A stretch of DNA of 64,000 nucleotides, from the IMG/VR virus record IMGVR_UViG_3300042542_004122, positions 8,162-72,161 of that record. The stretch is one strand, 5' to 3'. The translations under genes and the position numbers were made by a program. Under the pieces are notes generated by a model. It had not been told where the DNA came from, ran no database searches, and worked only from the letters and a program-made list of their open reading frames with translations. This stretch comes from a virus. Below are positions 635 to 39,289 of the stretch, piece by piece; position 1 is the stretch's first letter, and the number at the start of each line of letters is the position of its first letter.

Positions 635-1312
635 TTAATCTTCACGCCGCTGACCCAGGAGTTGTAAGAGATGGATGAATATATTGATAAAGTCTAGGTA
701 GAGCGTAAGAGCCCCGAAGATGCTGCTACGAGCCTGAGAACTGAATCCATAGACTAATCCACTTGAGTAGTATTCTTCTGATAATCTTTGAGTATCATAG
801 GCAGTAAGACCTGTGAAGATTAGGACTGCTAGTACAGAGACGATCCAGCTAAGCATAGAAGAACCTAGGAACAGGTTGACTACGGATGCCACTACGATAC
901 CGATTAGGCCTATAAAGAGAAACCCTCCTAGAGAGGTTAAGTCCCTCTTAGTAGAGTATCCATAGAGGCTTGCTGCTGCGAAAACGCTAGTAGAGATTAA
1001 GAGCACTTGAACTATGCTGCCTAGGGTGAAGATTAAGAAGATTGAACTTAGGCTTAAACCCGTAGCGGTTGCATAGAGATAGAATACTAGGTGTGCAACT
1101 GTCTCAGACATCCTATCCATGAAATTTAAGGCTAAGACGAATGCTAGGGGTAGGAAAGCTAAGACGATATTAAAACTACCTAGTGTGGCTACCCAAGGAG
1201 CGGCTACCCAGGCGGTTAGCGCTGTAACTAGGAGCGCAGTGGTCATCTTGTTGTAGACGCCGATGAGATATGACCTAAGACCCTCATCTACGGTTTGTGT
1301 AATTGTATTCAT
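635..1312 (-). CDS. Bax inhibitor-1/YccA family membrane protein
   Basis: About 7 hydrophobic segments, YDTQ and GALTLYLDFINIF motifs. Start moved to MNTITQ behind a GAGGG RBS. Confidence 0.9.
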   Translation of the reverse strand: MNTITQTVDEGLRSYLIGVYNKMTTALLVTALTAWVAAPWVATLGSFNIVLAFLPLAFVLALNFMDRMSETVAHLVFYLYATATGLSLSSIFLIFTLGSIVQVLLISTSVFAAASLYGYSTKRDLTSLGGFLFIGLIGIVVASVVNLFLGSSMLSWIVSVLAVLIFTGLTAYDTQRLSEEYYSSGLVYGFSSQARSSIFGALTLYLDFINIFIHLLQLLGQRRED

Positions 1313-1343
1313 TTTTCCCTCTAACGCGTAGAGTCCGGCAGCG

Positions 1344-1505
1344 TTAGCTACCAGACTCTTCATCCTCTCTAGACATGAGCTTATCAAGATCTTCTCGGCT
1401 GATCCAAAAGATTTGGCTGTCTACCTTGACTTGAGCATAACTGTCGTCAATGTGAACAACTTGTCCTTTGTTGCCTTCTACCTTGATATCTTTAAAAATT
1501 TGCAC
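1344..1505 (-). CDS. small hypothetical protein (53 aa)
   Basis: Hand translation from GTG: MQIFKDIKVEGNKGQVVHIDDSYAQVKVDSQIFWISREDLDKLMSREDEESGS. Fills the gap between co-oriented genes. Confidence 0.55.
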   Translation of the reverse strand: MQIFKDIKVEGNKGQVVHIDDSYAQVKVDSQIFWISREDLDKLMSREDEESGS

Positions 1506-2261: not shown

Positions 2262-2708
2262 TCAGAACTTTAGAGCAATACCAGCGGTAACGCTCTCTCT
2301 AAGATCGTTGTTATCAACGGAGTTGACCCTACGATAACGTAGATCTAGGTCTAGAGTCTTAGTTAGTTCGGTACGAACTCCAGCTCCTAGGACATAGAGA
2401 GGCTTACTATCTAGAGACTCTAGATCAGCCCCTAGACCTACTAGAACATAGGGAGTAATCCCAGTTGTAGGAATAGTAGCCTGAGGCATTACATGACCGT
2501 AAAGGTTATGCACCTTGCTGTCGACACGATACTCATAAGCACCCTCTACACGAAGATTCTTATTTAGATCTGTTCCAACAGCTAGGCCTAGGGTATTTTC
2601 CCTAGCTCCCTCTACCTGAGTTCCTAGATTACCAGCAACATATACGTCACCAGCTAGGGCAGAACTTGCAGCTAGAGAAGCTACAAGCGCGATTACATAC
2701 TTATTCAT
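2262..2708 (-). CDS. outer-membrane beta-barrel protein (OmpA/Opa-like)
   Basis: Signal peptide, amphipathic beta strands, LRVEG, PYVLVGLG, C-terminal Phe. Confidence 0.8.
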   Translation of the reverse strand: MNKYVIALVASLAASSALAGDVYVAGNLGTQVEGARENTLGLAVGTDLNKNLRVEGAYEYRVDSKVHNLYGHVMPQATIPTTGITPYVLVGLGADLESLDSKPLYVLGAGVRTELTKTLDLDLRYRRVNSVDNNDLRESVTAGIALKF

Positions 2709-2730
2709 TTATTTTTTCTTTCTCCTGATT

Positions 2731-2805
2731 TGGAAGCCCTGACCGGATTTGCACCGGCGTTGACGCCTTGAGAGGGCGTTATCCTAACTACTAGATGACA
2801 GGGCC
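2731..2805 (-). tRNA. tRNA-Glu(CTC)
   Basis: Anticodon arm ACGCC-CTCTCAA-GGCGT, CCA end. Confidence 0.85.
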
Positions 2806-2809
2806 GTTT

Positions 2810-2901
2810 TGGTGGAGGCTACTCGACTTGCACAAGTTGTCCGGACTACCCCTACTGTTTAAGGACGCCCGTTTTACAGACGGGTGTAGGGAATAGCCTC
2901 C
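2810..2901 (-). tRNA. atypical D-armless tRNA-Tyr(GTA)-like RNA with V-loop pseudoknot
   Basis: Acceptor GGAGGCT/AGCCTCC plus ACCA; anticodon arm CCCGT-CTGTAAA-ACGGG; T-arm ACTTG-TGCAAGT-CGAGT. No D hairpin, and CCCTAC is complementary to GTAGGG in the 30-nt variable region. Confidence 0.75.
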
Positions 2902-2912
2902 ATGTTATTTAC

Positions 2913-2941
2913 ATTTTATCAAAAGCTTAACCATATAGCAA
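2913..2941 (-). promoter_or_regulatory. promoter TTGCTA-N17-TAAAAT for the Tyr-like RNA
   Basis: Read directly, just upstream of the RNA. Confidence 0.6.
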
Positions 2942-2942
2942 C

Positions 2943-3362
2943 TTATTTTTTATCTAAGTTAGACCAGTTAAGTATTTGATCTAAGGTCGTCGAGTATAAA
3001 CCATATTTTGTTACTAGTTTATGAACTCTAGGGGCGATGGTATGTCTGAATAACATCTCCTCTTTGCGACTTTTTTCGACTAGAGAATAAGGTTTACCGG
3101 CAATATAAGCTCTCGCTAATTCCGTTGCGCGAGATTCATTTCTGACATCCCATCTACGATGGGTTATCAACCCTAATCGTTTAATATGCAGACCATATAG
3201 TTCACGATGTTTTTTATATACTGTATCGGAATGAAGGTCTTCAGTTATTTGATGATAGACCTTATAGTGGTCGATCTGTTTTTTAAGCTTGCGCTCTTCT
3301 CGTTTAATAATGCTAGGCTCAAACGCAAGATGCTTAGCTTTAATTTTTAGTTCTATACTCAT
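2943..3362 (-). CDS. basic hypothetical protein, possible RNA-binding partner
   Basis: 139 aa, K/R/H-rich (LKIKAKHL...HRRWDVRNESRATELARAYIAGKPY); GAGGAG RBS. Confidence 0.85.
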   Translation of the reverse strand: MSIELKIKAKHLAFEPSIIKREERKLKKQIDHYKVYHQITEDLHSDTVYKKHRELYGLHIKRLGLITHRRWDVRNESRATELARAYIAGKPYSLVEKSRKEEMLFRHTIAPRVHKLVTKYGLYSTTLDQILNWSNLDKK

Positions 3363-3377
3363 AGAATCTCCTCTTTT

Positions 3378-3443
3378 TTATAGTTTATAGTTGGAAAAGA
3401 GAAGATTAGGAGGCCCTCTGGCCTAGGCTGTCTGCTTAAACAT
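3378..3443 (-). promoter_or_regulatory. amber-interrupted leader peptide / translational attenuator (MFKQTA*ARGPPNLLFSNYKL*)
   Basis: GAGGA RBS and ATG at 3443; in-frame TAG at 3423-3425; RGPP codons; AATCTTCTCTTTT can pair with AAAAGAGGAGATT over the downstream SD. Confidence 0.7.
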
Positions 3444-3456
3444 GTTTCCTCAAATT

Positions 3457-3530
3457 TGGTGCCTCTCAGGGGATTTGAACCCCTCTACTCCGTTTTAGAG
3501 ACGGTCGCATAGCCACTCTGCCAGAGAGAC
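3457..3530 (-). tRNA. amber suppressor tRNA (anticodon CTA)
   Basis: GTCTCTC/GAGAGGC acceptor plus ACCA, D-arm GGCAGAGTGGCTATGC, anticodon arm CCGT-CTCTAAA-ACGG, T-arm AGGGG-TTCAAAT-CCCCT. Confidence 0.85.
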
Positions 3531-3540
3531 GTATTTAAAT

Positions 3541-3616
3541 TGGCTCCCCCGGTTCGATTCGAACGAACGACATTCTGATTAACAGTCAGATGCAACTACC
3601 GCTGTGCTACAGGGGA
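3541..3616 (-). tRNA. tRNA-Asn(GTT)
   Basis: Cloverleaf, loop CTGTTAA, CCA. Confidence 0.9.
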
Positions 3617-3623
3617 ATATAAA

Positions 3624-3698
3624 TGGAGCGGACGATGGGGATCGAACCCACGACATACACGTTGGCAACGTGCAACTCTACCGCTGAGCTACGTCCGC
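3624..3698 (-). tRNA. tRNA-Gly(GCC)
   Basis: Cloverleaf, loop TTGCCAA, CCA. Confidence 0.92.
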
Positions 3699-3699
3699 A

Positions 3700-4212
3700 T
3701 TAATTTTGTGGTAAAAGAGAAGTAGGAGGACCTAAAGTAGTCTGCCCCCACCTATCTGATGGCCACATAGGAAGAACTGTTTGAGGTTTAGACTTTGCTT
3801 TAATAAGCGCAGCCATTTCCTTATATCCATCCGCAGTAGGATGAATACCGTCCTTACCTAATTTAACTGTCTCAATTAGTGTATCACTAAACATTGTTGA
3901 CAAAGATTGCACAACATAGTTAGCTTCCTTATTACAGAATATATCATTACAAGGAGGATTAATCCAAATAATATTTGAAGATTTAATCTTATCTCGTACA
4001 GATAGAATTTGCAATAACTGTTCTTGTAGAGTTAACCCTTTATCATTTGTTCCTAGGCTAACTACTACAGTAGCAGCTTTTAGATCTACATGACCGAAGG
4101 TTTTACTCCAGTTAGAACTACTAATACCAACAACACTATAATTTTTACATTCAGGATAAGCCATACTTATCCCTTTGGCAATACTATCGCCTAGAATAAT
4201 GCATTCTAACAT
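3700..4212 (-). CDS. SGNH/GDSL hydrolase
   Basis: LGDS, LGTND and DGIHP blocks. Start moved to MLEC because the track's extension overlaps tRNA-Gly. Confidence 0.85.
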   Translation of the reverse strand: MLECIILGDSIAKGISMAYPECKNYSVVGISSSNWSKTFGHVDLKAATVVVSLGTNDKGLTLQEQLLQILSVRDKIKSSNIIWINPPCNDIFCNKEANYVVQSLSTMFSDTLIETVKLGKDGIHPTADGYKEMAALIKAKSKPQTVLPMWPSDRWGQTTLGPPTSLLPQN

Positions 4213-4215
4213 AAT

Positions 4216-4289
4216 TGGAGCGGAGTACGAGATTCGAACTCGTTTAGCCAGCTTGGAAGGCTGGAGCACAACCTATATGCCAACTCCGC
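4216..4289 (-). tRNA. tRNA-Gly(TCC)
   Basis: Cloverleaf, loop CTTCCAA, CCA. Confidence 0.9.
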
Positions 4290-4644: not shown

Positions 4645-4722
4645 TATACACACAAGCGTGACTCCAACACGCATTTTCGAGTTAAAGGCTCGACGTCCTA
4701 TGGTTAGACGACAGTGTGTATA
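4645..4722 (-). ncRNA. degenerate tRNA-like element (loop CCTTTAA, no CCA)
   Basis: Gln-like D-arm, TCGAG/CTCGA anticodon stem, GCGTG/CACGC T-stem, extended TATACACAC/GTGTGTATA stem. Confidence 0.5.
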
Positions 4723-8570: not shown

Positions 8571-10056
8571 TTTGTTTTTTGTAAATTGTATTGCCTACTA
8601 CCAACACATCTATGTCTGTTGATTTAAATAAGTTCATGGCATTCTCAATCCAGCCTGCTATAGGTTTTCCTGCTTCGTTAAGGCTTGTGTTTAATAATAA
8701 AGGGCACCCCGATAGTTCATGGAAAACTTCTAACAATTTTCTAAAAGCATAGTCAAACGATTCATTGACAGTTTGAGCGCGACAAGTTCCGTCGACATGA
8801 GTTATAGCTTGTAAATTATCTTTTTGTGTTGTGCCTAGATAAAGCATATACGGATTTTCAAAATCTAGATCAAAATATTCTTTGCCATACTCTTGCAAAA
8901 CACTAGCTCCAAAAGGTCTGTAGTACTCTCTATTTTTAACCCTATTAATTATATCTTTTCCATTTTTAATTCTTGGGTCCATTAGTATAGATCTGTGCCC
9001 TAATGCTCGTGGACCTATCTCACCATGTCCTTGATACCATGCAACAATTTTACCTTCATTTAAAAATTTAGCTGTTTGATATATGGTATCAATAGTAGGT
9101 TGGCTATGTGGAGACTGATCAGACTGCATGAATGGATATCTAGACATATTAAACTTAGGTAAATTTTTTGATTGTCTAAATAGTTCAAGTGTTCCAAAAG
9201 TTAATCCCTCATCGCTGCAATGTGGATATATTATGAGATTGGGGTATTTTTTCTTTAACAACGTATTCCAAACAACATTTTGTGCTACTCCACCTGAATA
9301 GCCTATTCTCTCATGCGGTTTGAAATGTTTTTCAAAAAATTCTAGTAGTAATTCGCCTATTCTAAAATGAATAGTGTGAGCAATATCTAATTTTTGTTGC
9401 AGAGGTAATGTTCTATCAACAAAATATAAATGATCGTCAGATGCAACTGTCCATTTCCAAGGTCTGTCTTTACGCATACCTTTAACTGCAGTGCTAGTAT
9501 AGTTCATGTTGTACTTTAAAAGATTTTCATAATGTTTCAAATTTAATCTACCATAACTTTGCCAACCCATAAGTTTACCCGCAAGATCAAGGCCATGACC
9601 TTCAATATCTAAATAATTTGCTATTATCCCCAAACCGTCGCCAAAACTTACGCCAGAATTAGAGGTAAGTATTTGGCTTATAATTTTATCATCTCTAAAA
9701 ATGCTACACCAAAGATCAGCGTTATCCCCTAATCCATCAACTACTACATGAGCATCTATTTTTTCTTTTTCTAATATCTCTACACTATATGCATGCTTTC
9801 TATGATGCCCTTGATACTTTTGATGTTCTGAGTAGCTAATATCTAAAAAGTTACCATTATATTTATTTTTACAATAAACAGCAATAAAATCTTGAATTTG
9901 AAATTCAACAGCGGACTTGCCAGTAATATAAAATCCAAAATGTTTATTTTGTAAAAGCCTTTCAAATTTTAAATAGCCTACTTTAGTATTAAAATAAGCT
10001 ATGGAAGCATCATGATAAGGATGTGATGCTACTATGCTTAACATAATTTCTTGCAC
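8563..10056 (-). CDS. NodU/CmcH-family carbamoyltransferase
   Basis: HDAS, HHRKHA, AGKLMG, EIGPRALGHRSIL, KNREYYRPFG, HVDGTCRAQ, LNTSLN. Confidence 0.92.
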   Translation of the reverse strand: MQEIMLSIVASHPYHDASIAYFNTKVGYLKFERLLQNKHFGFYITGKSAVEFQIQDFIAVYCKNKYNGNFLDISYSEHQKYQGHHRKHAYSVEILEKEKIDAHVVVDGLGDNADLWCSIFRDDKIISQILTSNSGVSFGDGLGIIANYLDIEGHGLDLAGKLMGWQSYGRLNLKHYENLLKYNMNYTSTAVKGMRKDRPWKWTVASDDHLYFVDRTLPLQQKLDIAHTIHFRIGELLLEFFEKHFKPHERIGYSGGVAQNVVWNTLLKKKYPNLIIYPHCSDEGLTFGTLELFRQSKNLPKFNMSRYPFMQSDQSPHSQPTIDTIYQTAKFLNEGKIVAWYQGHGEIGPRALGHRSILMDPRIKNGKDIINRVKNREYYRPFGASVLQEYGKEYFDLDFENPYMLYLGTTQKDNLQAITHVDGTCRAQTVNESFDYAFRKLLEVFHELSGCPLLLNTSLNEAGKPIAGWIENAMNLFKSTDIDVLVVGNTIYKKQNV

Positions 10057-10987
10057 AACTTAGCAATCGATTCTGAATACGAGATTCTGAGTATAAAGCT
10101 CTTAGGTGTTTACTATACTTTAGATCGTCTATCAATCTTTTCAACATTTTCAATTGAGTATTTTTATTAATTTCAGATGTTAATCCTATATATTTTAAAA
10201 AGGTATTAATGTCTGAAAGTTCTTCTTCTTTATTGATTAGTGCTAAAAACTCTCTATGAAAACCAAAAACACTGATTTCACATTTGGTAGTATAAGTATT
10301 TAGTAATTCATATAATAGCCTGTAATTTTTATCAATCCAGAATTTTTTCCAAAATGTTCTATATTGTACTTTTAGTTCTATTTCATTAATAAAATTATCT
10401 GGTAAAAGATATGAGTAGAATAAAAATTCGCAAGGTTTATCTTGATTAAGAAGAACATCAATCGCTTCTTCTATGTTTTCAATTTTATCTAGATACTTTT
10501 TTTGAACATAAAAAGGCGTATGAGGTGTTAGAAAATAGTCTAATGATTTTTTTTTAAAGTAGTTACTGTAATCATCTACACATTTTTTTGATGGAAAAAT
10601 ATCATGTGCATGTATAGGGCTAATATTACCTGAGCCAATAGTATTTTTCCAATTTGAATAGCTACTATTTCTAATAAAAAAATTCAATGGACCTAGAAGG
10701 AGGTAATCACCATCTATAAACTGAGAAACAAGTATTTTAATTCCCTGATGTCTAAACCATCCATTCTTATAAGAATTTACCTTTGCAAAATCTTTGACAC
10801 TTAAAACTTTTACAGAATTTTTGTCTTTATAATATTTCTCAATTAAAACATTCCACTTTTCAAAATCTGTATATTCATTAATAATTATCCAATGAACATA
10901 CGAATCTATAAATTTGGATATTGATTCTAGTTGAAGTTCAAAAACTTCAAAATCACGGTCACAAACAATAGTAACTATATTCAACAT
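10010..10987 (-). CDS. hypothetical glycosyltransferase-like protein
   Basis: IVCDRDF...LQLESI and GWFRHQGIKI; resembles GT-A-like phage proteins. Confidence 0.55.
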   Translation of the reverse strand: MLNIVTIVCDRDFEVFELQLESISKFIDSYVHWIIINEYTDFEKWNVLIEKYYKDKNSVKVLSVKDFAKVNSYKNGWFRHQGIKILVSQFIDGDYLLLGPLNFFIRNSSYSNWKNTIGSGNISPIHAHDIFPSKKCVDDYSNYFKKKSLDYFLTPHTPFYVQKKYLDKIENIEEAIDVLLNQDKPCEFLFYSYLLPDNFINEIELKVQYRTFWKKFWIDKNYRLLYELLNTYTTKCEISVFGFHREFLALINKEEELSDINTFLKYIGLTSEINKNTQLKMLKRLIDDLKYSKHLRALYSESRIQNRLLSCARNYVKHSSITSLS

Positions 10988-16045: not shown

Positions 16046-16890
16046 GGAAAGCTGAGATTACACTTTCTATATTAGCACTTCAAGAGGTACCCTCTATTTG
16101 CAGTAGAGGTTTTCTTGACATCCACCAGATGCCTGCTAAGGTCACCCAGTATACCAACAGTATCGCCTTTTAAAGTCTGGCAGTAGACTTGACGTTATAC
16201 GCTACTCTATATTATACCGTCCGCTGACCTTGCGAGCCATTAAGCCTTGCGAGCTACGAATTTTTTAATATAAACTGATTTCACCTTGCGGGTTACATCA
16301 GACCAAGTTCTCTTTCGAGCTTGGTATTAGATACCTTTCACATATAACCGAGGCAGACTTTGCTTTTTTAAAACATTGACTGGATTTGAACCAGCGTCCG
16401 TTTGCTTCCAACGCAAATGCTCATCCACTGAGCTACAATAATAACCTACTGCGATGTGCTGCCTCGTTGCTCCGTATGGTTTTGACATACAAAATACAAC
16501 ACACCACGTATCTTTCGCGACGCGCGCTACTCGATCGTATTTTGCGACGATGTATAAGCATTTATAGCTTATCCACTACCGCTGATACTGCAAAAATGCC
16601 TTTAGTTGCTTAAACTTCAGACAGAGATGCTACCCTTTGTTCTACCAACTGCTAGATTGGTGTTGTAGTGAAGTCGGCACCACCCGTTACATTCCAATAA
16701 CTTAGGTTCCCCTTTCGGGCCTATAAGCTATCGTTTTCTCACTACACCTAGTTCATTGTTACCTCCGTTGCCGAAGGCTAGGAACTGGGCTTGCTTAAGT
16801 GGGCCACTCGGAGAGTGGTGCGGTTATGTAGGGATTACCGCTTTTATCACATTACTGTGACTATCCTTATGGGGCTTAAGCGCCCCAACT
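16046..16890 (-). ncRNA. GOLLD-like giant structured ncRNA (~840 nt)
   Basis: No credible ORF; GC-richer segment in a phage tRNA cluster; many GCAA/GAAA tetraloop hairpins; embedded tRNA-like domain; own promoter and terminator. Confidence 0.72.
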
Positions 16891-17335: not shown

Positions 17336-17411
17336 TGGTGCCCCAGACAAGACTTGCACTTGTTTCCTTACCCTTACCAAGGGTCTGTTCAGCTATATGA
17401 ACTTCAGGGGC
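17336..17411 (-). tRNA. tRNA-Thr(GGT)
   Basis: Loop TTGGTAA, ACCA. Confidence 0.85.
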
Positions 17412-31331: not shown

Positions 31332-32075
31332 TTATAAACTAACCTGTAATTTTTCGTATTGATTAATTCTATATTTTAACTCAGGGATGAAAGGTAAAGT
31401 TTGTGATTCAAATACTTGAACATCTGCGTTTTCCACAGTAATTAAAACAACTATTTTTTGTAAGTTTGTTTTAAAAATTTCATTGTGAGCGTAAGCATAT
31501 GCTGTGCACTGTATAAAATAATCTTTAATATCTTTTATCTGTTTTTTCTTTTTAGATGTTTTAAAGTCTATTACTGCCGGAATTTTATTCCACTCTCCAA
31601 ACATATCAACTCGTCCAGCATATCTCAAATGCTTAGACCAAACAGGTATTTCTTGTGCCCAAACATTAGTTACGCCTTTTTGTGTAGCCTGTATGAGATT
31701 AGTAATCATTTTCTGAGTAGTAATTTCTTCATTTAAAATATCAGTTGCCCAAGAGTTAGATCCATCCCAATATCTTTCTAGATATTTGTGCACTATCTCT
31801 CCACGATCCGTAGCAGCTTTAGATACACGCGCTGCCTCTTCTTCTCCTACTTTATCTTTCCAGCGTTGCAACCAGATATTATTAGCCGTTTTTCCTAAAA
31901 TAGTAGTGACGCTAGGAAAACTACCATCAGGTGTTTTATATAGCCTGCCTTTTTCGGTAGTTTCTGCTGTTACCTCTTTGCATACGGAATAATCAAAATT
32001 TGTCAATTTGGTTACCAAACACGTCCCATCCAGGTCTTTGCGTTCTTGCAAACATTTCCAGATATGGGCCATCAA
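31332..32075 (-). CDS. PD-(D/E)XK exonuclease (true start probably near 32006)
   Basis: PSVTTIL, RGEIVH, YAGRVD, IDFKTS, YFIQCTAYA. Confidence 0.85.
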   Translation of the reverse strand: MMAHIWKCLQERKDLDGTCLVTKLTNFDYSVCKEVTAETTEKGRLYKTPDGSFPSVTTILGKTANNIWLQRWKDKVGEEEAARVSKAATDRGEIVHKYLERYWDGSNSWATDILNEEITTQKMITNLIQATQKGVTNVWAQEIPVWSKHLRYAGRVDMFGEWNKIPAVIDFKTSKKKKQIKDIKDYFIQCTAYAYAHNEIFKTNLQKIVVLITVENADVQVFESQTLPFIPELKYRINQYEKLQVSL

Positions 32076-32592
32076 ATAGTCTTTCTATTCTGTCATAGGC
32101 TTCGTCAGGTTTTCTACTATGCTCACGTTGTTGAGATATGATTACTTGTCTAACACCTTTATCTTTACGCTCTAAAGTTTTACCTCGTCTACCGAGTAGA
32201 CATAGCTCTGCGTTAGCTCTAGTGTAATATCCTAGATTCATGCGTATATCTTTATCTACATCTAAGGCTTTAAGATTGGCTGTTTTATTAGTTTTTACCC
32301 AAGTAAATGCACAGGTTTTATATTCAAATCCCCACGCTTTCATTACTTCGAAACTTTTGTCCAAGATAGGAAAAGTTACCCACATAAATAAGATTGAGTT
32401 AGGAGCCGCAATCTTCTTAATCGGTAAATTTTTAATATCTTCCAAAGTCATAACCTTATAATCTGGACTTCTATCTCCACCAGCTTCTGAGTAGGTTTCA
32501 AATGTCCAAGGTGGATCGGCGTAAATAACCGAATACCGTTTATCTGTATTAAATATGTCTATATTCACTATTACCTCAAAGACATTAACCAT
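31993..32592 (-). CDS. MT-A70 family adenine methyltransferase
   Basis: IYADPPW, LFMWVT, WGFEYKT, HSRKP, LEMFAR. Confidence 0.9.
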   Translation of the reverse strand: MVNVFEVIVNIDIFNTDKRYSVIYADPPWTFETYSEAGGDRSPDYKVMTLEDIKNLPIKKIAAPNSILFMWVTFPILDKSFEVMKAWGFEYKTCAFTWVKTNKTANLKALDVDKDIRMNLGYYTRANAELCLLGRRGKTLERKDKGVRQVIISQQREHSRKPDEAYDRIERLFDGPYLEMFARTQRPGWDVFGNQIDKF

Positions 32593-32625
32593 AGGACTAT
32601 AAATCCCATGGCTAATATTATTATA

Positions 32626-32895
32626 CTAATCATCTTCATCTACCATCTCACTACCAGATAGCATCATATGTTTCACTGATTCAATGCCACCTATAGCCAA
32701 GATAATATCAAATTCTCCTGCTATTATGGAAAATATTTTATTATCAGATCCCATACCCACAGCAACTATACCGGATAATTTACCTTGGTCTATAAGGTTA
32801 TGTATCTCGCCTACAATTTTTAGCATCATTTCTTTGGGAGATGTGGTTCCGTCTTTTTTACTTTTTAGGTCTTGAAAATTAATAATATTATCCAT
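32626..32895 (-). CDS. hypothetical protein
   Basis: 89-aa ORF in a coupled run. Confidence 0.65.
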   Translation of the reverse strand: MDNIINFQDLKSKKDGTTSPKEMMLKIVGEIHNLIDQGKLSGIVAVGMGSDNKIFSIIAGEFDIILAIGGIESVKHMMLSGSEMVDEDD

Positions 32896-33328
32896 TATAA
32901 CAACACTCGCTTGCTAAAGTATCTACTTCTTCATTTTCTGGTATGCCAGAATGGGCAGGAACCCATTTCCATTCTATAGATATATGAGAAGATAGAAGAT
33001 CTAGCTCTTTCCAAAGGTCTTGATTTTTTACAGGCTTACGGTTAGCAGTTTTCCAACCATTCTTTTTCCAAGAGTGAATCCACTCTGTTATACCCTTTTT
33101 AAGGTATTGGCTATCAGTATTAACCTCTATAGTATCTATTTCGAGTGTTACGTTTTTAATACCTTCTATAGCTGCTCGTAGTTCCATCCTATTATTTGTA
33201 GTATTAGACTCGCGACCTATTACTATCTTAGGATCTTTATCCAAGTAGTAAATTTTAGCCGCAAACCCTCCAGGACCGGGGTTACCTTTACAGGCTCCGT
33301 CACAAAATATTATAGCTCTATTAGTCAT
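32888..33328 (-). CDS. rnhA: ribonuclease HI
   Basis: DGACKGNPGPGG, TTNNRMEL, TDSQY, KNQDLW, WVPAHSG, NEEVD. Confidence 0.95.
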   Translation of the reverse strand: MTNRAIIFCDGACKGNPGPGGFAAKIYYLDKDPKIVIGRESNTTNNRMELRAAIEGIKNVTLEIDTIEVNTDSQYLKKGITEWIHSWKKNGWKTANRKPVKNQDLWKELDLLSSHISIEWKWVPAHSGIPENEEVDTLASECCYNG

Positions 33329-38125: not shown

Positions 38126-38311
38126 GTGTTTCAACTAAAACATAACTACTTTAAAGGTCAAGTCGTAGAATTTAGTTATAATTACTGGTCCATCTATAAT
38201 GAGGCTGGTAAGCTAATTCTGACTACTAAAGATAAAAAATATGCTGAGGCTAAATTGCAACAACTAAATAAGGCTTTAGCAGACAAGATCTCGTTGATAG
38301 CAGCGAAATAA
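38126..38311 (+). CDS. hypothetical protein
   Basis: 61-aa ORF; 3' end overlaps the tmRNA acceptor piece. Confidence 0.4.
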   Translation: MFQLKHNYFKGQVVEFSYNYWSIYNEAGKLILTTKDKKYAEAKLQQLNKALADKISLIAAK

Positions 38312-38556
38312 GCATACTGGACACGGGGGCAGTGCCCGTCATCTCCACCATAAATATGTCGATTAGTAAACATTGACATATTTATAATGGGGATGAATTA
38401 GGATCGACAGGTGTGTAAAGGTTGAAGTAGAGATAGGTGCGCGAGCGACCTCTAATCGCAAGAAATCAATAAATGCTAACGATAATAGCATCGAAGAGAT
38501 CCGCCTAGCGGCATAACTTCTGCGGTATGGGCTCCACCGTATTACCCAACGGGCCT
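38270..38556 (+). ncRNA. ssrA: circularly permuted two-piece tmRNA
   Basis: Acceptor piece ends ...GACACGGGGGCAGTGCCCGTCATCTCCACCA at 38350; hairpin spacer; coding piece starts GGGGATGAATTAGGATCGAC at 38389; tag ANDNSIEEIRLAA* at 38475-38516. Outer ends approximate. Confidence 0.9.
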
Positions 38557-38578
38557 ATTCCTTTTAGAAAGATTTTTA

Positions 38579-39289
38579 ATGTTTATTTATTGGAGAGTAT
38601 GCGAATTACAAAAATCTATTAGCTACGTTAATAGATGGAAAAACTATAACAAAACAGACATCTTAAAAAGATGCTGGTTATCAGTTCAGAGTAGCGTATC
38701 TCCAGACGATCAAATCTATCTAATAGAAGATAATGTAACCCATGAGACTTTAACTTGGTTAAGAGAGACGTGCAAAGCAAAGCTAAGTATCATACACGTA
38801 CCAGAACATGCATGGGAATATCATCAACATACAGTAACCTTGATAGATACGCTAGAATCCTCTGTTAAACAGTATGAGCAAGATGTTCATCTTATTTTAG
38901 AAGATGATTATCTGTTTACTCCAAACGGATTAAATACTTTTAAGTTGTCCGCTGAAAATTGGAATCAAGGATTTATAGCTCCTTACGACTATATTGATAG
39001 ATATAAAGAAATAAAACCCACTCAAGTTCTTTTAGGCCCAGATAGACATTGGCGTACAGTAGATAGTATTACTATGACTGTAGCAGCCAAAGGTTTTATC
39101 TGGGTTAAGTATTTAAAAGACTTAAAAGATGCAGCTCCTACCAGCAATGATAAAGTCTTCGATAAGATTTTATCTGAAGTGCCATGTATCTCTCCAATGC
39201 CTTCTTTATGCAGTCATCTTACCGAACATCATAATAGTCCTTACATGGATATAGAAAATATCTGGAAATATTACGAGAACAATCTATGA
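38579..39289 (+). CDS. GT-A fold glycosyltransferase
   Basis: LILEDDYL DxD-type motif. Confidence 0.75.
   Translation: MFIYWRVCELQKSISYVNRWKNYNKTDILKRCWLSVQSSVSPDDQIYLIEDNVTHETLTWLRETCKAKLSIIHVPEHAWEYHQHTVTLIDTLESSVKQYEQDVHLILEDDYLFTPNGLNTFKLSAENWNQGFIAPYDYIDRYKEIKPTQVLLGPDRHWRTVDSITMTVAAKGFIWVKYLKDLKDAAPTSNDKVFDKILSEVPCISPMPSLCSHLTEHHNSPYMDIENIWKYYENNL

What the first reader, a model, noticed from the sequence alone, without database searches (positions are those of the whole stretch)
2810..3530. Candidate new system: amber-suppressor tRNA + amber/RGPP leader attenuator + basic protein + pseudoknotted tRNA-Tyr-like RNA
Seen, in order on the minus strand: tRNA(CUA) at 3457-3530; 13 nt later a leader ORF MFKQTA-UAG-ARGPPNLLFSNYKL; an anti-SD hairpin masking the RBS of a K/R-rich 139-aa gene; then a D-armless tRNA(GUA). 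The two RNAs share the anticodon arm CCGTCT[C/G]TAAAACGG, differing only at the wobble base. Established: RAPP/RGPP/RAGP motifs arrest ribosomes (ApdA/ApdP, SecM), and T5-like phages use tRNA-Tyr against tRNA-cleaving defences. Inference: the protein is made only when UAG is read through. The cassette would then sense suppressor-tRNA or RF1 status and switch on a factor acting with the odd tRNA (partner, modifier or anti-defence protein). I know no described system with this architecture.
Basis: partly seen in the sequence, partly recalled or inferred. Interest (0 to 1): 0.93.

Follow-up and report, generated by a model that had tools for sequence, protein, structure and literature searches.

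The report
Suppressor-tRNA-gated leader switch in phages
Many large aquatic phages carry a stop-codon-reading tRNA placed next to a tiny leader gene that contains that same stop codon and a ribosome-stalling Pro-Pro ending, an arrangement that most likely switches on a conserved protein of unknown function only when the phage's own tRNA is working.

Summary
tRNA(CUA) 3457-3530(-) is a good tRNA. Thirteen nt later come a leader, MFKQTA-UAG-ARGPP..., an anti-SD hairpin and the 139-aa gene.

171 loci holding homologues collapse to 87 distinct upstream regions. 85 of these have a Shine-Dalgarno site, a short ORF, an internal stop, a few codons and Pro-Pro. 73 pair TAG with tRNA(CUA), 10 have TAG but no suppressor called in the DNA held, and 2 pair TGA with tRNA(UCA). 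No combination is mismatched.

Two phages with 98% identical proteins differ exactly in this pairing. The hairpin co-varies. It starts about 15 nt after the internal stop, at the second stop. The window and a complete 171-kb relative are not recoded.

Most likely, read-through by the phage suppressor moves the ribosome to a Pro-Pro stall that opens the hairpin.

The protein family has 2709 cluster representatives and no known fold or domain. The tRNA-Tyr-like RNA (2810-2901) is not part of the cassette, and no tRNA detector calls it.

I found no published description. First readers noted the same cassette on two other genomes.

The parts
3457..3530 (-). Amber-suppressor tRNA, anticodon CUA. 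It has a class I body, A73 and an encoded CCA, with anticodon loop CUCUAAA.
   Evidence: ARAGORN. Rfam RF00005 scores 48.8 bits. There are 54 distinct homologous tRNA(CUA) sequences next to the homologous gene in other phages, with changed but paired acceptor stems.
3378..3443 (-). Leader ORF MFKQTA-UAG-ARGPPNLLFSNYKL-UAA. The GAGGA Shine-Dalgarno site lies at 3451-3447, the internal TAG at 3425-3423 and the Pro-Pro codons at 3413-3408.
   Evidence: Read from the sequence. Leaders of the same design occur in 85 of 87 distinct upstream regions, with 43 distinct peptides in the subset.
3365..3407 (-). Anti-Shine-Dalgarno hairpin. The 5' arm is 3407-3395, starting right after the Pro-Pro codons. 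The 3' arm is 3377-3365 and covers the GAGGAG at 3373-3368 of the main gene.
   Evidence: MFE fold of -11.3 kcal/mol with 13 bp. Cognate arm pairing averages -13.3 kcal/mol against -7.2 for non-cognate pairs over 57 distinct loci. The SD lies inside the 3' arm in 65 of 66.
2943..3362 (-). Gated gene: a 139-aa basic, all-helical protein of an unnamed phage family. Its conserved motifs are an N-terminal LKIKxKHLAxEP..IIRxEE and HRxWDVRNExRATxLARAY.
   Evidence: 222 homologues. 2709 cluster representatives at E<=0.001. AlphaFold2 pLDDT 90.9. No Pfam, PHROG, PADLOC, PDB or fold match.
2810..2901 (-). Neighbouring 92-nt tRNA-Tyr-like RNA with GUA in a 7-nt hairpin loop. It is NOT a conserved part of the cassette and is listed only because the finding included it.
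   Evidence: Sequence read. No tRNA call. Found only in the window and in one close relative. A promoter-like site lies at 2941-2913.

Best explanation
This is a self-contained phage regulatory cassette of three linked parts: a suppressor tRNA gene, a sensor leader and a gated gene.

How it most likely works:
1. The leader mRNA, most likely co-transcribed with the tRNA, is translated from its own Shine-Dalgarno site.
2. After about 6 codons the ribosome meets UAG (UGA in two lineages).
3. If a release factor wins, the ribosome leaves. The anti-SD hairpin, which begins about 15 nt further on, stays closed and the main gene is silent.
4. If the phage's own suppressor tRNA decodes the stop, the ribosome translates 4-5 more codons. 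It then stalls on [K/R/H]-Pro-Pro-stop, or on R-G/S-Pro-Pro in the window's type.
5. In that position the ribosome sits on the 5' arm of the hairpin, which frees the Shine-Dalgarno site so the roughly 125-140-aa protein is made.

Because tRNA and mRNA come from the same array, the circuit is a coherent feed-forward AND gate. It delays and thresholds the protein until the phage tRNA is processed, charged and able to out-compete the release factor.

Shown here (by computation only): the parts, their conservation, the co-variation of the arms, the geometry and the anticodon/stop-codon match.

Inferred: stalling, hairpin opening, the ON polarity and co-transcription.

Unknown: what the protein does. 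My ranking is as follows.
(a) A factor that should act only once the phage's tRNA supply works, serving as a checkpoint or timer for takeover of translation.
(b) A homeostat that limits or tunes suppression.
(c) An anti-defence factor.
For: - Conservation: of 87 distinct upstream regions from 171 loci, 85 carry SD, short ORF, internal stop and Pro-Pro. One more (L041) shows TAG-KVFKPP-TAA by eye.
- Linkage: tRNA(CUA) lies 94-129 nt upstream of the gene in 22 of 23 loci of the first set.
- Anticodon/stop match: 73 TAG with CUA, 2 TGA with UCA, 0 mismatched.
- Co-switching: L149 (CUA/TAG) and L150 (UCA/TGA) have proteins 105/107 identical. The tRNA plus leader block is swapped and identity resumes at the hairpin's 3' arm. 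L134 (UCA/TGA) is only 46% identical to L150, so this is a second, independent switch.
- Hairpin co-variation: cognate duplex mean -13.3 kcal/mol against -7.2 for non-cognate. 54 of 57 have z<-2 against shuffles, and 43 of 57 beat at least 95% of dissimilar non-cognates.
- Geometry, over 66 distinct xPP-stop leaders: the first paired base is a median 15 nt after the internal stop (57 of 66 within 13-19). It lies within -3..+5 of the first base of the second stop in 62 of 66. The SD is inside the 3' arm in 65 of 66.
- Suppression-friendly context: the base after the stop is A in 29, G in 11, C in 3 and T in 0 of 43 leaders.
- No other evident target for the tRNA: the window and a complete 170,832-bp relative read well in the standard code.
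- Literature: RGPP and RAPP give robust arrest that EF-P does not relieve (abstract of PMC12992588). Poly-Pro C-termini give the weakest termination in E. coli (passage of PMC6412442).
- Engineered circuits of the same logic work: passage and figure legend of PMC6412442 section 6, and title plus start of the abstract of PMC7969014 in the listing.
- The ribosome footprint of about 12-13 nt 3' of the A-site codon is recalled knowledge.
Against: - Nothing was measured. Stalling on such short chains (7-12 residues), hairpin opening and the polarity of the effect are inferred.
- EF-P may relieve Pro-Pro in the unknown hosts.
- The loci are related phages from similar waters, so the counts are not independent events.
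- In 10 distinct regions no suppressor tRNA was called in the DNA held. One of these has a CUA-type tRNA about 2.5 kb away, and two have irregular CUA-containing anticodon loops.
- One homologue (L076) has no leader at all.
- The amino acid carried by the tRNA is unknown.
- The protein gave no functional clue by any method, so the purpose of the switch is a guess.
- Contigs from RNA libraries that cover the cassette may be DNA carry-over.
Confidence: 0.75

Rival explanations
1. Release-factor sensor. The variable that matters in the cell is RF1/RF2 activity, for example host RF depletion, inhibition or a defence acting on termination. On this reading the tRNA is only a constant helper.
For: Read-through is always a competition between tRNA and release factor, so the leader reports their ratio. 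In-frame stop sensing of release-factor level is known from prfB (recalled). One complete relative encodes an ArfB-like RF-1-domain ORF. These phages also carry tmRNA genes, which points to an interest in termination and rescue.
Against: The tRNA is physically tied to the leader and was swapped together with the leader's stop codon, so the tRNA is a designed input. The same protein family is gated by UAG (RF1) or UGA (RF2), so no single release factor is the target.
Confidence: 0.1
2. Reverse polarity. Read-through and stalling at Pro-Pro-stop switch the gene OFF, for example through A-site mRNA cleavage, tmRNA tagging and decay of the message. Basal expression would occur when the hairpin breathes.
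For: Pro-Pro before a stop provokes tmRNA tagging in E. coli (recalled, Hayes et al. 2002). The phages encode tmRNA.
Against: The 5' arm of the SD-masking hairpin starts at the stall site in 62 of 66 leaders. That is the layout of activating attenuators of the ermC/secM type. A constantly masked SD would make the gene nearly silent in the supposed ON state.
Confidence: 0.05
3. The gated protein works with the D-armless tRNA-Tyr-like RNA as its partner, modifier or anti-defence helper.
For: The two lie next to each other in the window and share a 4-bp anticodon stem. The window's tRNAs cover 19 amino acids and lack only Tyr. tRNA-Tyr is a known target of defence nucleases (abstract of PMC13096335, listing).
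Against: The RNA is absent next to the gene in every other lineage examined. Relatives carry ordinary tRNA-Tyr genes elsewhere in the array. No detector calls it a tRNA.
Confidence: 0.03
4. By-product of genome-wide TAG reassignment. The leader is just a small gene in a recoded phage.
For: Suppressor tRNAs are the hallmark of recoded phages (abstract of bioRxiv 10.1101/2021.08.26.457843, listing).
Against: In the window, 71 ORFs of at least 100 aa cover 79% of the sequence in code 11, and 10 of them end in TAG. The only TAG-joined pair is two genes, the second with its own start. In the complete relative, 170 ORFs cover 84%, and TAG joins 3 open pairs against 10 for TAA and 6 for TGA.
Confidence: 0.02

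Closest known systems
Translational attenuation by leader-peptide stalling (ermC, cat, secM-secA type)
   Same: A short upstream ORF with its own SD. A ribosome stalled at a defined site overlaps the 5' arm of a hairpin that sequesters the SD of the next gene.
   Different: The trigger is neither a drug nor a secretion defect. It is decoding of an in-frame stop codon by a dedicated tRNA encoded next door, and the stall site is reached only after read-through.
RAPP-like arrest peptides (ApdA, ApdP, ApcA; RAPP/RGPP)
   Same: The window's leader carries R-G-P-P. PMC12992588 (abstract) reports RAPP and RGPP as robust, EF-P-refractory arrest cores found upstream of diverse genes.
   Different: Those peptides are longer, often secretory or membrane proteins that monitor protein localisation. 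Here the chain has 7-12 residues. Most relatives use [K/R/H]PP directly followed by a stop (32 of 43 distinct leaders), and the motif sits behind a stop codon.
TnaC / tna operon and Pro-stop termination stalling
   Same: Stalling at a C-terminal proline with a stop codon in the A site controls downstream expression (the reference list of PMC6412442 seen; otherwise recalled).
   Different: TnaC senses free tryptophan and acts through Rho. Here there is no ligand, and control acts on translation initiation.
prfB (RF2) autoregulation and classic trp/his attenuation
   Same: A codon in a short reading frame reports the supply of a decoding factor, either a release factor or a charged tRNA.
   Different: prfB uses a frameshift inside the regulated gene itself. 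The trp and his leaders use sense codons and a transcription terminator. Neither uses a suppressor tRNA.
Engineered UAG-in-leader switches and suppressor-tRNA feed-forward loops
   Same: Same logic: expression of the target needs translation of a leader beyond an inserted UAG (PMC6412442 section 6 and Figure 8 legend). In the second case, it needs a co-induced suppressor tRNA (PMC7969014, title and start of abstract).
   Different: Those circuits are man-made. The present cassette appears to be a natural counterpart, and a widespread one.
Stop-codon-recoded phages (TAG or TGA reassigned in late genes)
   Same: A phage-encoded suppressor tRNA is thought to control the timing of gene expression.
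   Different: Here there is no genome-wide recoding. The only evident target is one leader codon.

Membership tests
Leader-peptide translational attenuator (ermC/secM type) | Short upstream ORF with its own Shine-Dalgarno site | tested here: met
   Present in the window and in 85 of 87 distinct upstream regions.
Leader-peptide translational attenuator (ermC/secM type) | Hairpin that sequesters the SD of the regulated gene, with its 5' arm under the stalled ribosome | tested here: met
   SD inside the 3' arm in 65 of 66. The 5' arm starts within -3..+5 nt of the second stop in 62 of 66. The arms co-vary.
Leader-peptide translational attenuator (ermC/secM type) | Ribosome really stalls at the site and expression responds | not testable with these tools
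   This needs toeprinting and reporter assays.
RAPP-like arrest peptides (ApdA/ApdP/ApcA) | C-terminal R-A/G-P-P core | tested here: inconclusive
   The window and 3 of the other 42 distinct leaders carry RGPP, and 3 more carry RSPP (7 of 43 in all). 34 of 43 end in xPP-stop, with x = K in 14, R in 11, H in 7, I in 1 and Y in 1.
RAPP-like arrest peptides (ApdA/ApdP/ApcA) | Encoded upstream of protein-localisation genes; N-terminal secretion or membrane segment | tested here: not met
   The leader has about 6 residues before the stop and no hydrophobic segment. The downstream gene has no Sec/YidC domain.
Stop-codon-recoded phage genome | Many in-frame TAG (or TGA) codons inside conserved genes; poor ORFs in code 11 | tested here: not met
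   window; complete relative, 84% covered by ORFs of at least 100 aa in code 11.
Canonical tRNA (for the 92-nt RNA 2810-2901) | Cloverleaf recognised by tRNA covariance or heuristic models | tested here: not met
   No RF00005 match at E<=1 on 20 kb or at E<=10 on 171 nt. ARAGORN found 0 genes in 5 option sets, including mitochondrial modes.
Canonical tRNA (for the 92-nt RNA 2810-2901) | Stems supported by compensatory changes | tested here: inconclusive
   Only one other copy exists. Its 2 differences fall in regions that are unpaired in the tRNA-like fold and are also compatible with the rival MFE fold. One C>U change in strains from RNA libraries keeps a G-U pair in the acceptor-like stem.
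Functional suppressor tRNA (for 3457-3530) | Cloverleaf, CUA anticodon in a 7-nt loop with U33 and A37, conserved across relatives with paired stems | tested here: met
   and the alignment of 54 distinct sequences. Aminoacylation and its identity cannot be tested here.

The most novel reading that the evidence does not exclude
A natural 'genetic-code lock'. These phages keep a suppressor tRNA not to recode their genomes but as a dedicated trans-acting key for one sensor codon. The gated protein, from a family with thousands of cluster representatives and no known fold relative, is a new kind of factor that acts on translation, for example on termination, ribosome rescue or the host tRNA pool. 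It would be released only once the phage's own tRNA array is functional. This would explain orphan suppressor tRNAs in standard-code phages. It would also be the first natural circuit in which stop-codon suppression is the regulatory signal.
Probability: 0.5. Interest if true: 0.92.

Novelty: new variant of a known kind. Interest (0 to 1): 0.85.

Why it matters
- Suppressor tRNAs turn up in many phages that use the standard code, and their targets are usually unknown. One genome announcement says so outright (abstract of PMC9022506, listing). This cassette gives such a tRNA a concrete, testable target one gene away.
- It would be a natural example of a design that synthetic biologists built independently: a UAG placed in a leader, and suppressor-tRNA feed-forward gates.
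- It adds a new input, stop-codon read-through by a cognate tRNA, to the known family of ribosome-arrest attenuators.
- It supplies about 40 natural short arrest leaders and two natural amber-to-opal swaps as ready-made controls.
- It flags a very large, uncharacterised phage protein family (2709 representatives at 50% identity) whose expression is tied to translation termination.
- Two cultured phages with tractable hosts carry the cassette, so it can be tested directly. They are Synechococcus phage BUCT-ZZ01 on S. elongatus PCC 7942 and roseophage DSS3_MAL1.

Tried and rejected
**Function of the protein**
- No Pfam or PHROG family for the window protein.
- No consistent family over 24 or 44 members in Pfam, PHROGs or PADLOC.
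- The PDB profile search gave a best E of 0.73.
- Foldseek against the PDB gave 0 matches at E<=0.001.
- VIA-align wide gave a best Z of 7.6, all generic helical hairpins and below the noise level the tool states for helical models.
- The ESM Atlas gave no usable hit.
- The search for longer proteins found 1 hit (333 aa, carrying PF00867), which I take to be a fused gene call.
- I considered a HEPN-like Rx4-6H reading of the conserved RNExRAT[H] stretch and dropped it, because the His is not conserved.
- I considered an RF1-inhibitor model and dropped it as the leading idea because of the UGA/UCA versions.
- I did not use complex prediction, because I claim no specific binding partner.

**The odd RNA**
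- An exact-pattern scan of viral contigs found only the close relative plus two unrelated places.
- No Rfam family fits it.

**More distant contexts**
- The scan of bacterial genomes found 1 locus, on a 156-kb MAG contig.
- Phage NCTB is a weak homologue (33% identity, E 5e-4) with no clear Pro-Pro leader and no tRNA in the 5.3 kb held. I left it out of the counts.

**Suppressor tRNA in the 5 records where none was called**
- A strict pattern found one CUA-type site, in G001, and none in the four fragments. These are 4-50% complete, so this says nothing about absence.

**Expression**
- The RNA-library data are contigs, not reads. They show presence only, not starts, ends or strand.

**Literature**
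- Seven searches found no description of a natural suppressor-gated leader: plus the two phage names.
- Supplementary files were not consulted.

**Rows dropped**
- L093, which has no upstream DNA.
- L107 (NCTB).
- L108, L110 and L111, which are not homologue loci.
- In one search only 29 of the 80 loci were examined, those on contigs not seen before. One search covered all of them.
Full report
**What is in the window**

The window is 64 kb of a 72-kb IMG/VR virus contig that CheckV rates 67% complete. It holds a large tRNA array: ARAGORN finds 28 tRNAs plus a permuted tmRNA. Rfam adds three more tRNA-like hits and a GOLLD RNA.

On the minus strand, ARAGORN calls a tRNA with anticodon CUA at 3457-3530, and Rfam scores it at 48.8 bits.

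Thirteen nt downstream sit a GAGGA Shine-Dalgarno site and an ORF. It reads ATG(3443)-TTT-AAG-CAG-ACA-GCC-TAG(3425)-GCC-AGA-GGG-CCT-CCT-..., ends in TAA at 3380-3378, and translates as MFKQTA*ARGPPNLLFSNYKL*.

Directly after the two Pro codons a 13-bp hairpin forms, with arms at 3407-3395 and 3377-3365. It pairs with the GAGGAG of the 139-aa ORF at 2943-3362.

**Is it more than chance? Comparative evidence**

The 139-aa protein has no Pfam or PHROG family, but it has 222 relatives in the word-indexed search. An exhaustive profile search returns 2709 cluster representatives at E<=0.001, of which 1060 are at E<=1e-10. All listed hits are stand-alone proteins of about 100-180 aa.

Three scans of IMG/VR gave the loci studied:
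- the single protein (23 relatives, all kept);
- alignment A1 (113 relatives, best 80 kept);
- alignment A2 of more distant members (114 relatives, best 80 kept).

I added two cultured phages and one MAG contig, which gave 171 loci in all. One (L093) has no upstream DNA, and the rest collapse to 87 distinct upstream regions.

Of these 87 regions:
- 73 have a TAG-containing leader and a tRNA(CUA) in the DNA held;
- 10 have the TAG leader but no suppressor called in the DNA held;
- 2 have a TGA-containing leader and a tRNA(UCA);
- 1 (L041) has TAG-KVFKPP-TAA behind a longer frame, seen by eye;
- 1 (L076) has no leader, with a tRNA-Val ending 20 nt before the gene.

In the first set the tRNA(CUA) lies 94-129 nt upstream of the gene in 22 of 23 loci. 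In L003 it lies downstream, yet the leader MKEFFA*TYKPP* is still present.

**The leader design**

Among 43 distinct leader peptides:
- 27 have 6 codons before the internal stop, with a range of 1 to 10. Four begin with a start codon directly followed by TAG.
- 25 have 5 codons after the internal stop.
- 34 end in x-Pro-Pro directly followed by a stop, with x = K in 14, R in 11, H in 7, I in 1 and Y in 1.
- 9 have Pro-Pro followed by further codons: 4 RGPP (including the window), 3 RSPP, 1 IGPP-I-stop and 1 RPP-P-stop.

The base after the internal stop is A in 29, G in 11, C in 3 and never T. From recalled work on context effects, a purine there favours suppression.

Variants confirm the rule rather than break it:
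- L122/L123 have MSL-TAG followed by about 88 codons that end in ...EDWAPP-TAA at the hairpin.
- L149 has 13 codons between TAG and RGPP-TAA.

**Anticodon and stop codon change together**

- In L134 the tRNA 108 nt upstream has anticodon UCA, and the leader reads ATG-TTG-TGA-GTA-TAC-GCG-CCA-CCT-TAA.
- In L150 the tRNA has UCA, and the leader reads MIIFS-TGA-...-IRGPP.
- L149 has CUA and MGDNT-TAG-...-IRGPP-TAA.

The gated proteins of L149 and L150 are 105/107 identical. In the DNA alignment the tRNA and the first part of the leader are replaced as a block, and identity resumes at the 3' arm of the hairpin.

L134's protein is only 46% identical to L150's, so the opal version arose, or was acquired, at least twice. 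No TAG leader sits beside a UCA tRNA, and no TGA leader beside a CUA tRNA (0 of 75 regions with both parts). This is the strongest argument that the leader's stop codon is meant to be read by the neighbouring tRNA.

**The hairpin**

I computed the duplex energy between the 24 nt that start at the Pro-Pro codons and the 24 nt before the start codon, for 57 distinct sequences.
- Cognate pairs average -13.3 kcal/mol. Pairs taken from different loci with dissimilar arms average -7.2 (sd 2.6, n = 2378).
- 54 of 57 cognates have z<-2 against 200 shuffles of the 5' arm.
- 43 of 57 beat at least 95% of dissimilar non-cognates.

The arm sequences differ widely between lineages, for example CTTCTCTTTT/AAAAGAGGAG, TAATTGGG/CCCAATTA and TTCCGTTG/CAACGGAG. 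The pairing, not the sequence, is what is kept.

For 66 distinct xPP-stop leaders:
- The first paired base lies a median 15 nt after the internal stop (57 of 66 within 13-19).
- It lies within -3..+5 nt of the first base of the second stop in 62 of 66.
- The SD is inside the 3' arm in 65 of 66.
- The second stop is a median 51.5 nt (44-90) before the start codon.

A ribosome covers about 12-13 nt 3' of the first A-site base (recalled knowledge). With the internal stop in its A site it does not reach the hairpin. With the second stop in its A site it sits on the 5' arm.

In the window's type the leader runs on through the 5' arm and ends 15 nt before the main start. Translational coupling may therefore add to the effect.

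**No recoding**

- In the window, 71 ORFs of at least 100 aa cover 79% in code 11. Their stops are 34 TAA, 27 TGA and 10 TAG.
- The single TAG-joined pair of open stretches is an 89-aa ORF followed by an MT-A70-type methylase with its own start.
- A complete relative with terminal repeats (G006, 170,832 bp) has 170 non-overlapping ORFs of at least 100 aa that cover 84%. Their stops are 113 TAA, 49 TGA and 8 TAG. TAG joins 3 pairs of open stretches, against 10 for TAA and 6 for TGA.

The suppressor therefore has no evident genome-wide role.

**The gated protein**

AlphaFold2 on a 44-sequence alignment gives pLDDT 90.9 and pTM 0.77. The model is a long helical hairpin (helices 3-36 and 53-87) plus helices 102-120 and 127-133.

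The invariant residues are K6, K8, K10, H11, E15, E22, E23, H68, R69, R78, T80, R84, E96, Y120 and W133. By my reading of the model they lie at the open end of the hairpin, and the tip is variable and carries indels. That pattern suggests a specific binding or catalytic site, but no search gave a relative of known function.

The family is essentially confined to phages. There is one hit in one genome for each of 185,579 species, and that hit is on a 156-kb MAG contig.

Because the same family is gated by amber or by opal suppressors, its role is unlikely to be specific to RF1.

**Cultured carriers and occurrence**

- Synechococcus phage BUCT-ZZ01 (ON615601) has tRNA(CUA), the leader MGGDAS*INLKPP*, the gene for UTS52135.1, and a permuted tmRNA about 500 nt further on.
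- Roseophage DSS3_MAL1 (MN602268) has a 'tRNA-Pyl' (MAL1_00029), the leader MKS*IRPPP*, and the gene for QGH74798.1.

Both protein genes are annotated as hypothetical. The two papers that mention these phages (listings) do not concern this locus, judging by their titles.

The window's sequence is held by 14 lake-water DNA runs and, in part, by 6 metatranscriptome runs. Contigs from 4 RNA libraries were laid on the window. In three of them (X15-X17) contigs cover the cassette, one of them 1674 nt spanning 2608-4281. This shows presence, not transcription. The contig of the fourth library (X19) lacks 2974-3472, which is the 3' end of the tRNA, the leader and nearly the whole gene. The two sides share 6 letters at the joint. 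So a natural variant has lost the cassette as a unit.

**The odd RNA (2810-2901)**

The sequence has a 7-bp acceptor-like stem plus ACCA and a T-like arm with loop TGCAAGT. A similar loop occurs in two other tRNAs of this phage, Glu-CUC and Thr-GGU. It also has a CUGUAAA hairpin loop.

No tool calls it a tRNA. The predicted MFE fold differs from the tRNA-like fold.

It occurs only here and in the 94%-identical contig, with two substitutions that do not discriminate between the folds.

Points in its favour:
- The window's tRNAs cover 19 amino acids and lack only Tyr.
- A promoter-like site precedes it (though the number of such sites is not above shuffles).
- Read by eye, a TCCCTAC/GTAGGGG stem stacked on the anticodon-like stem would give an arm of about the usual length.

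It may be an aberrant tRNA-Tyr. It is not part of the conserved cassette.

**Comparison with what is known**

The mechanism belongs to the known kind of arrest-peptide translational attenuators. What is new is the input and the packaging: a cognate suppressor tRNA gene, a sensor stop codon and a Pro-Pro stall, carried together as a mobile module.

- RGPP and RAPP are documented as robust arrest cores (PMC12992588, abstract).
- Poly-Pro C-termini are documented as the poorest termination context in E. coli (PMC6412442, passage).
- Engineered analogues exist (PMC6412442 section 6; PMC7969014).

Seven literature searches found no natural example. I did not see supplements.

Earlier first-reader notes of this scan describe the same cassette on two other genomes. 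They are unchecked notes, but the leader they quote (MKDFRL*IRPP*) is one I also found, for example in L033.

**Verdict**

The finding's core is real, conserved and, as far as I can tell, undescribed. The mechanism is well supported by comparative anatomy but untested, and the function of the gated protein is open. The tRNA-Tyr-like RNA should be treated as a separate, weaker observation.

Noticed in passing
window 16049-16507 (-): A full-length GOLLD RNA (Rfam RF02032, 205 bits against a gathering score of 150) that encloses a tRNA-Pro(UGG) at 16371-16442, inside the phage tRNA array.
   Followed up: no
window 38258-38607 (+); L105 3385-3803; G006 10022-10413: Phage-encoded permuted (two-piece) tmRNA genes. 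Their tags are ANDNSIEEIRLAA, ANDETFSMALAA and ANDSVYALAA. In BUCT-ZZ01 the tmRNA lies about 500 nt after the gated gene. This may link to Pro-Pro-stop stalling or to the cost of read-through.
   Followed up: partly
window 2974-3472, in run X19: A 1464-nt contig from a metatranscriptome library joins 2973 to 3473. It skips 499 nt, namely the 3' end of tRNA(CUA), the leader and almost the whole gated gene, with 6 shared letters at the joint. This looks like a natural deletion variant that lost the cassette as a unit.
   Followed up: no
window 31993-32913 (-): An 89-aa ORF that ends in TAG lies in frame with a downstream MT-A70-type (DPPW) methyltransferase ORF that has its own ATG. Amber read-through would give a fusion protein. 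I did not check whether this is conserved.
   Followed up: partly
L122/L123 1178-1441: Here the gated leader is long: MSL-TAG, then about 88 codons ending in EDWAPP-TAA at the hairpin. A whole small protein would be made only on read-through.
   Followed up: no
L114 122-210; L118 336-412: Irregular suppressor-like tRNAs lie directly upstream of TAG leaders. ARAGORN reports a 2-letter and a 4-letter 'anticodon' (a 6-nt loop and an 8-nt loop with CCUA). In L114 the leader's AGGAG lies inside the 3' acceptor strand of the tRNA.
   Followed up: partly
G006:C1:164364-164648 (+): A complete 171-kb relative encodes a 132-aa open frame with an RF-1 domain (PF00472, 56 bits), the size of an ArfB-type rescue factor. 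It is absent from the window's contig and from three other relatives.
   Followed up: no
window 2731-2805, 17339-17411, 2810-2901 (-): Three RNAs of this phage share an unusual T-loop, TGCAA[A/G]T, with G where tRNAs normally have U55. They are tRNA-Glu(CUC), tRNA-Thr(GGU) and the odd Tyr-like RNA. A tRNA-like sequence at 4648-4718 lacks CCA.
   Followed up: no
window 635-1387, 2262-2708, 3700-4269 (-): Protein genes are interspersed in the tRNA array: a Bax1-I family membrane protein (E 2e-51), a small outer-membrane beta-barrel protein and a GDSL-type lipase/acylhydrolase.
   Followed up: no
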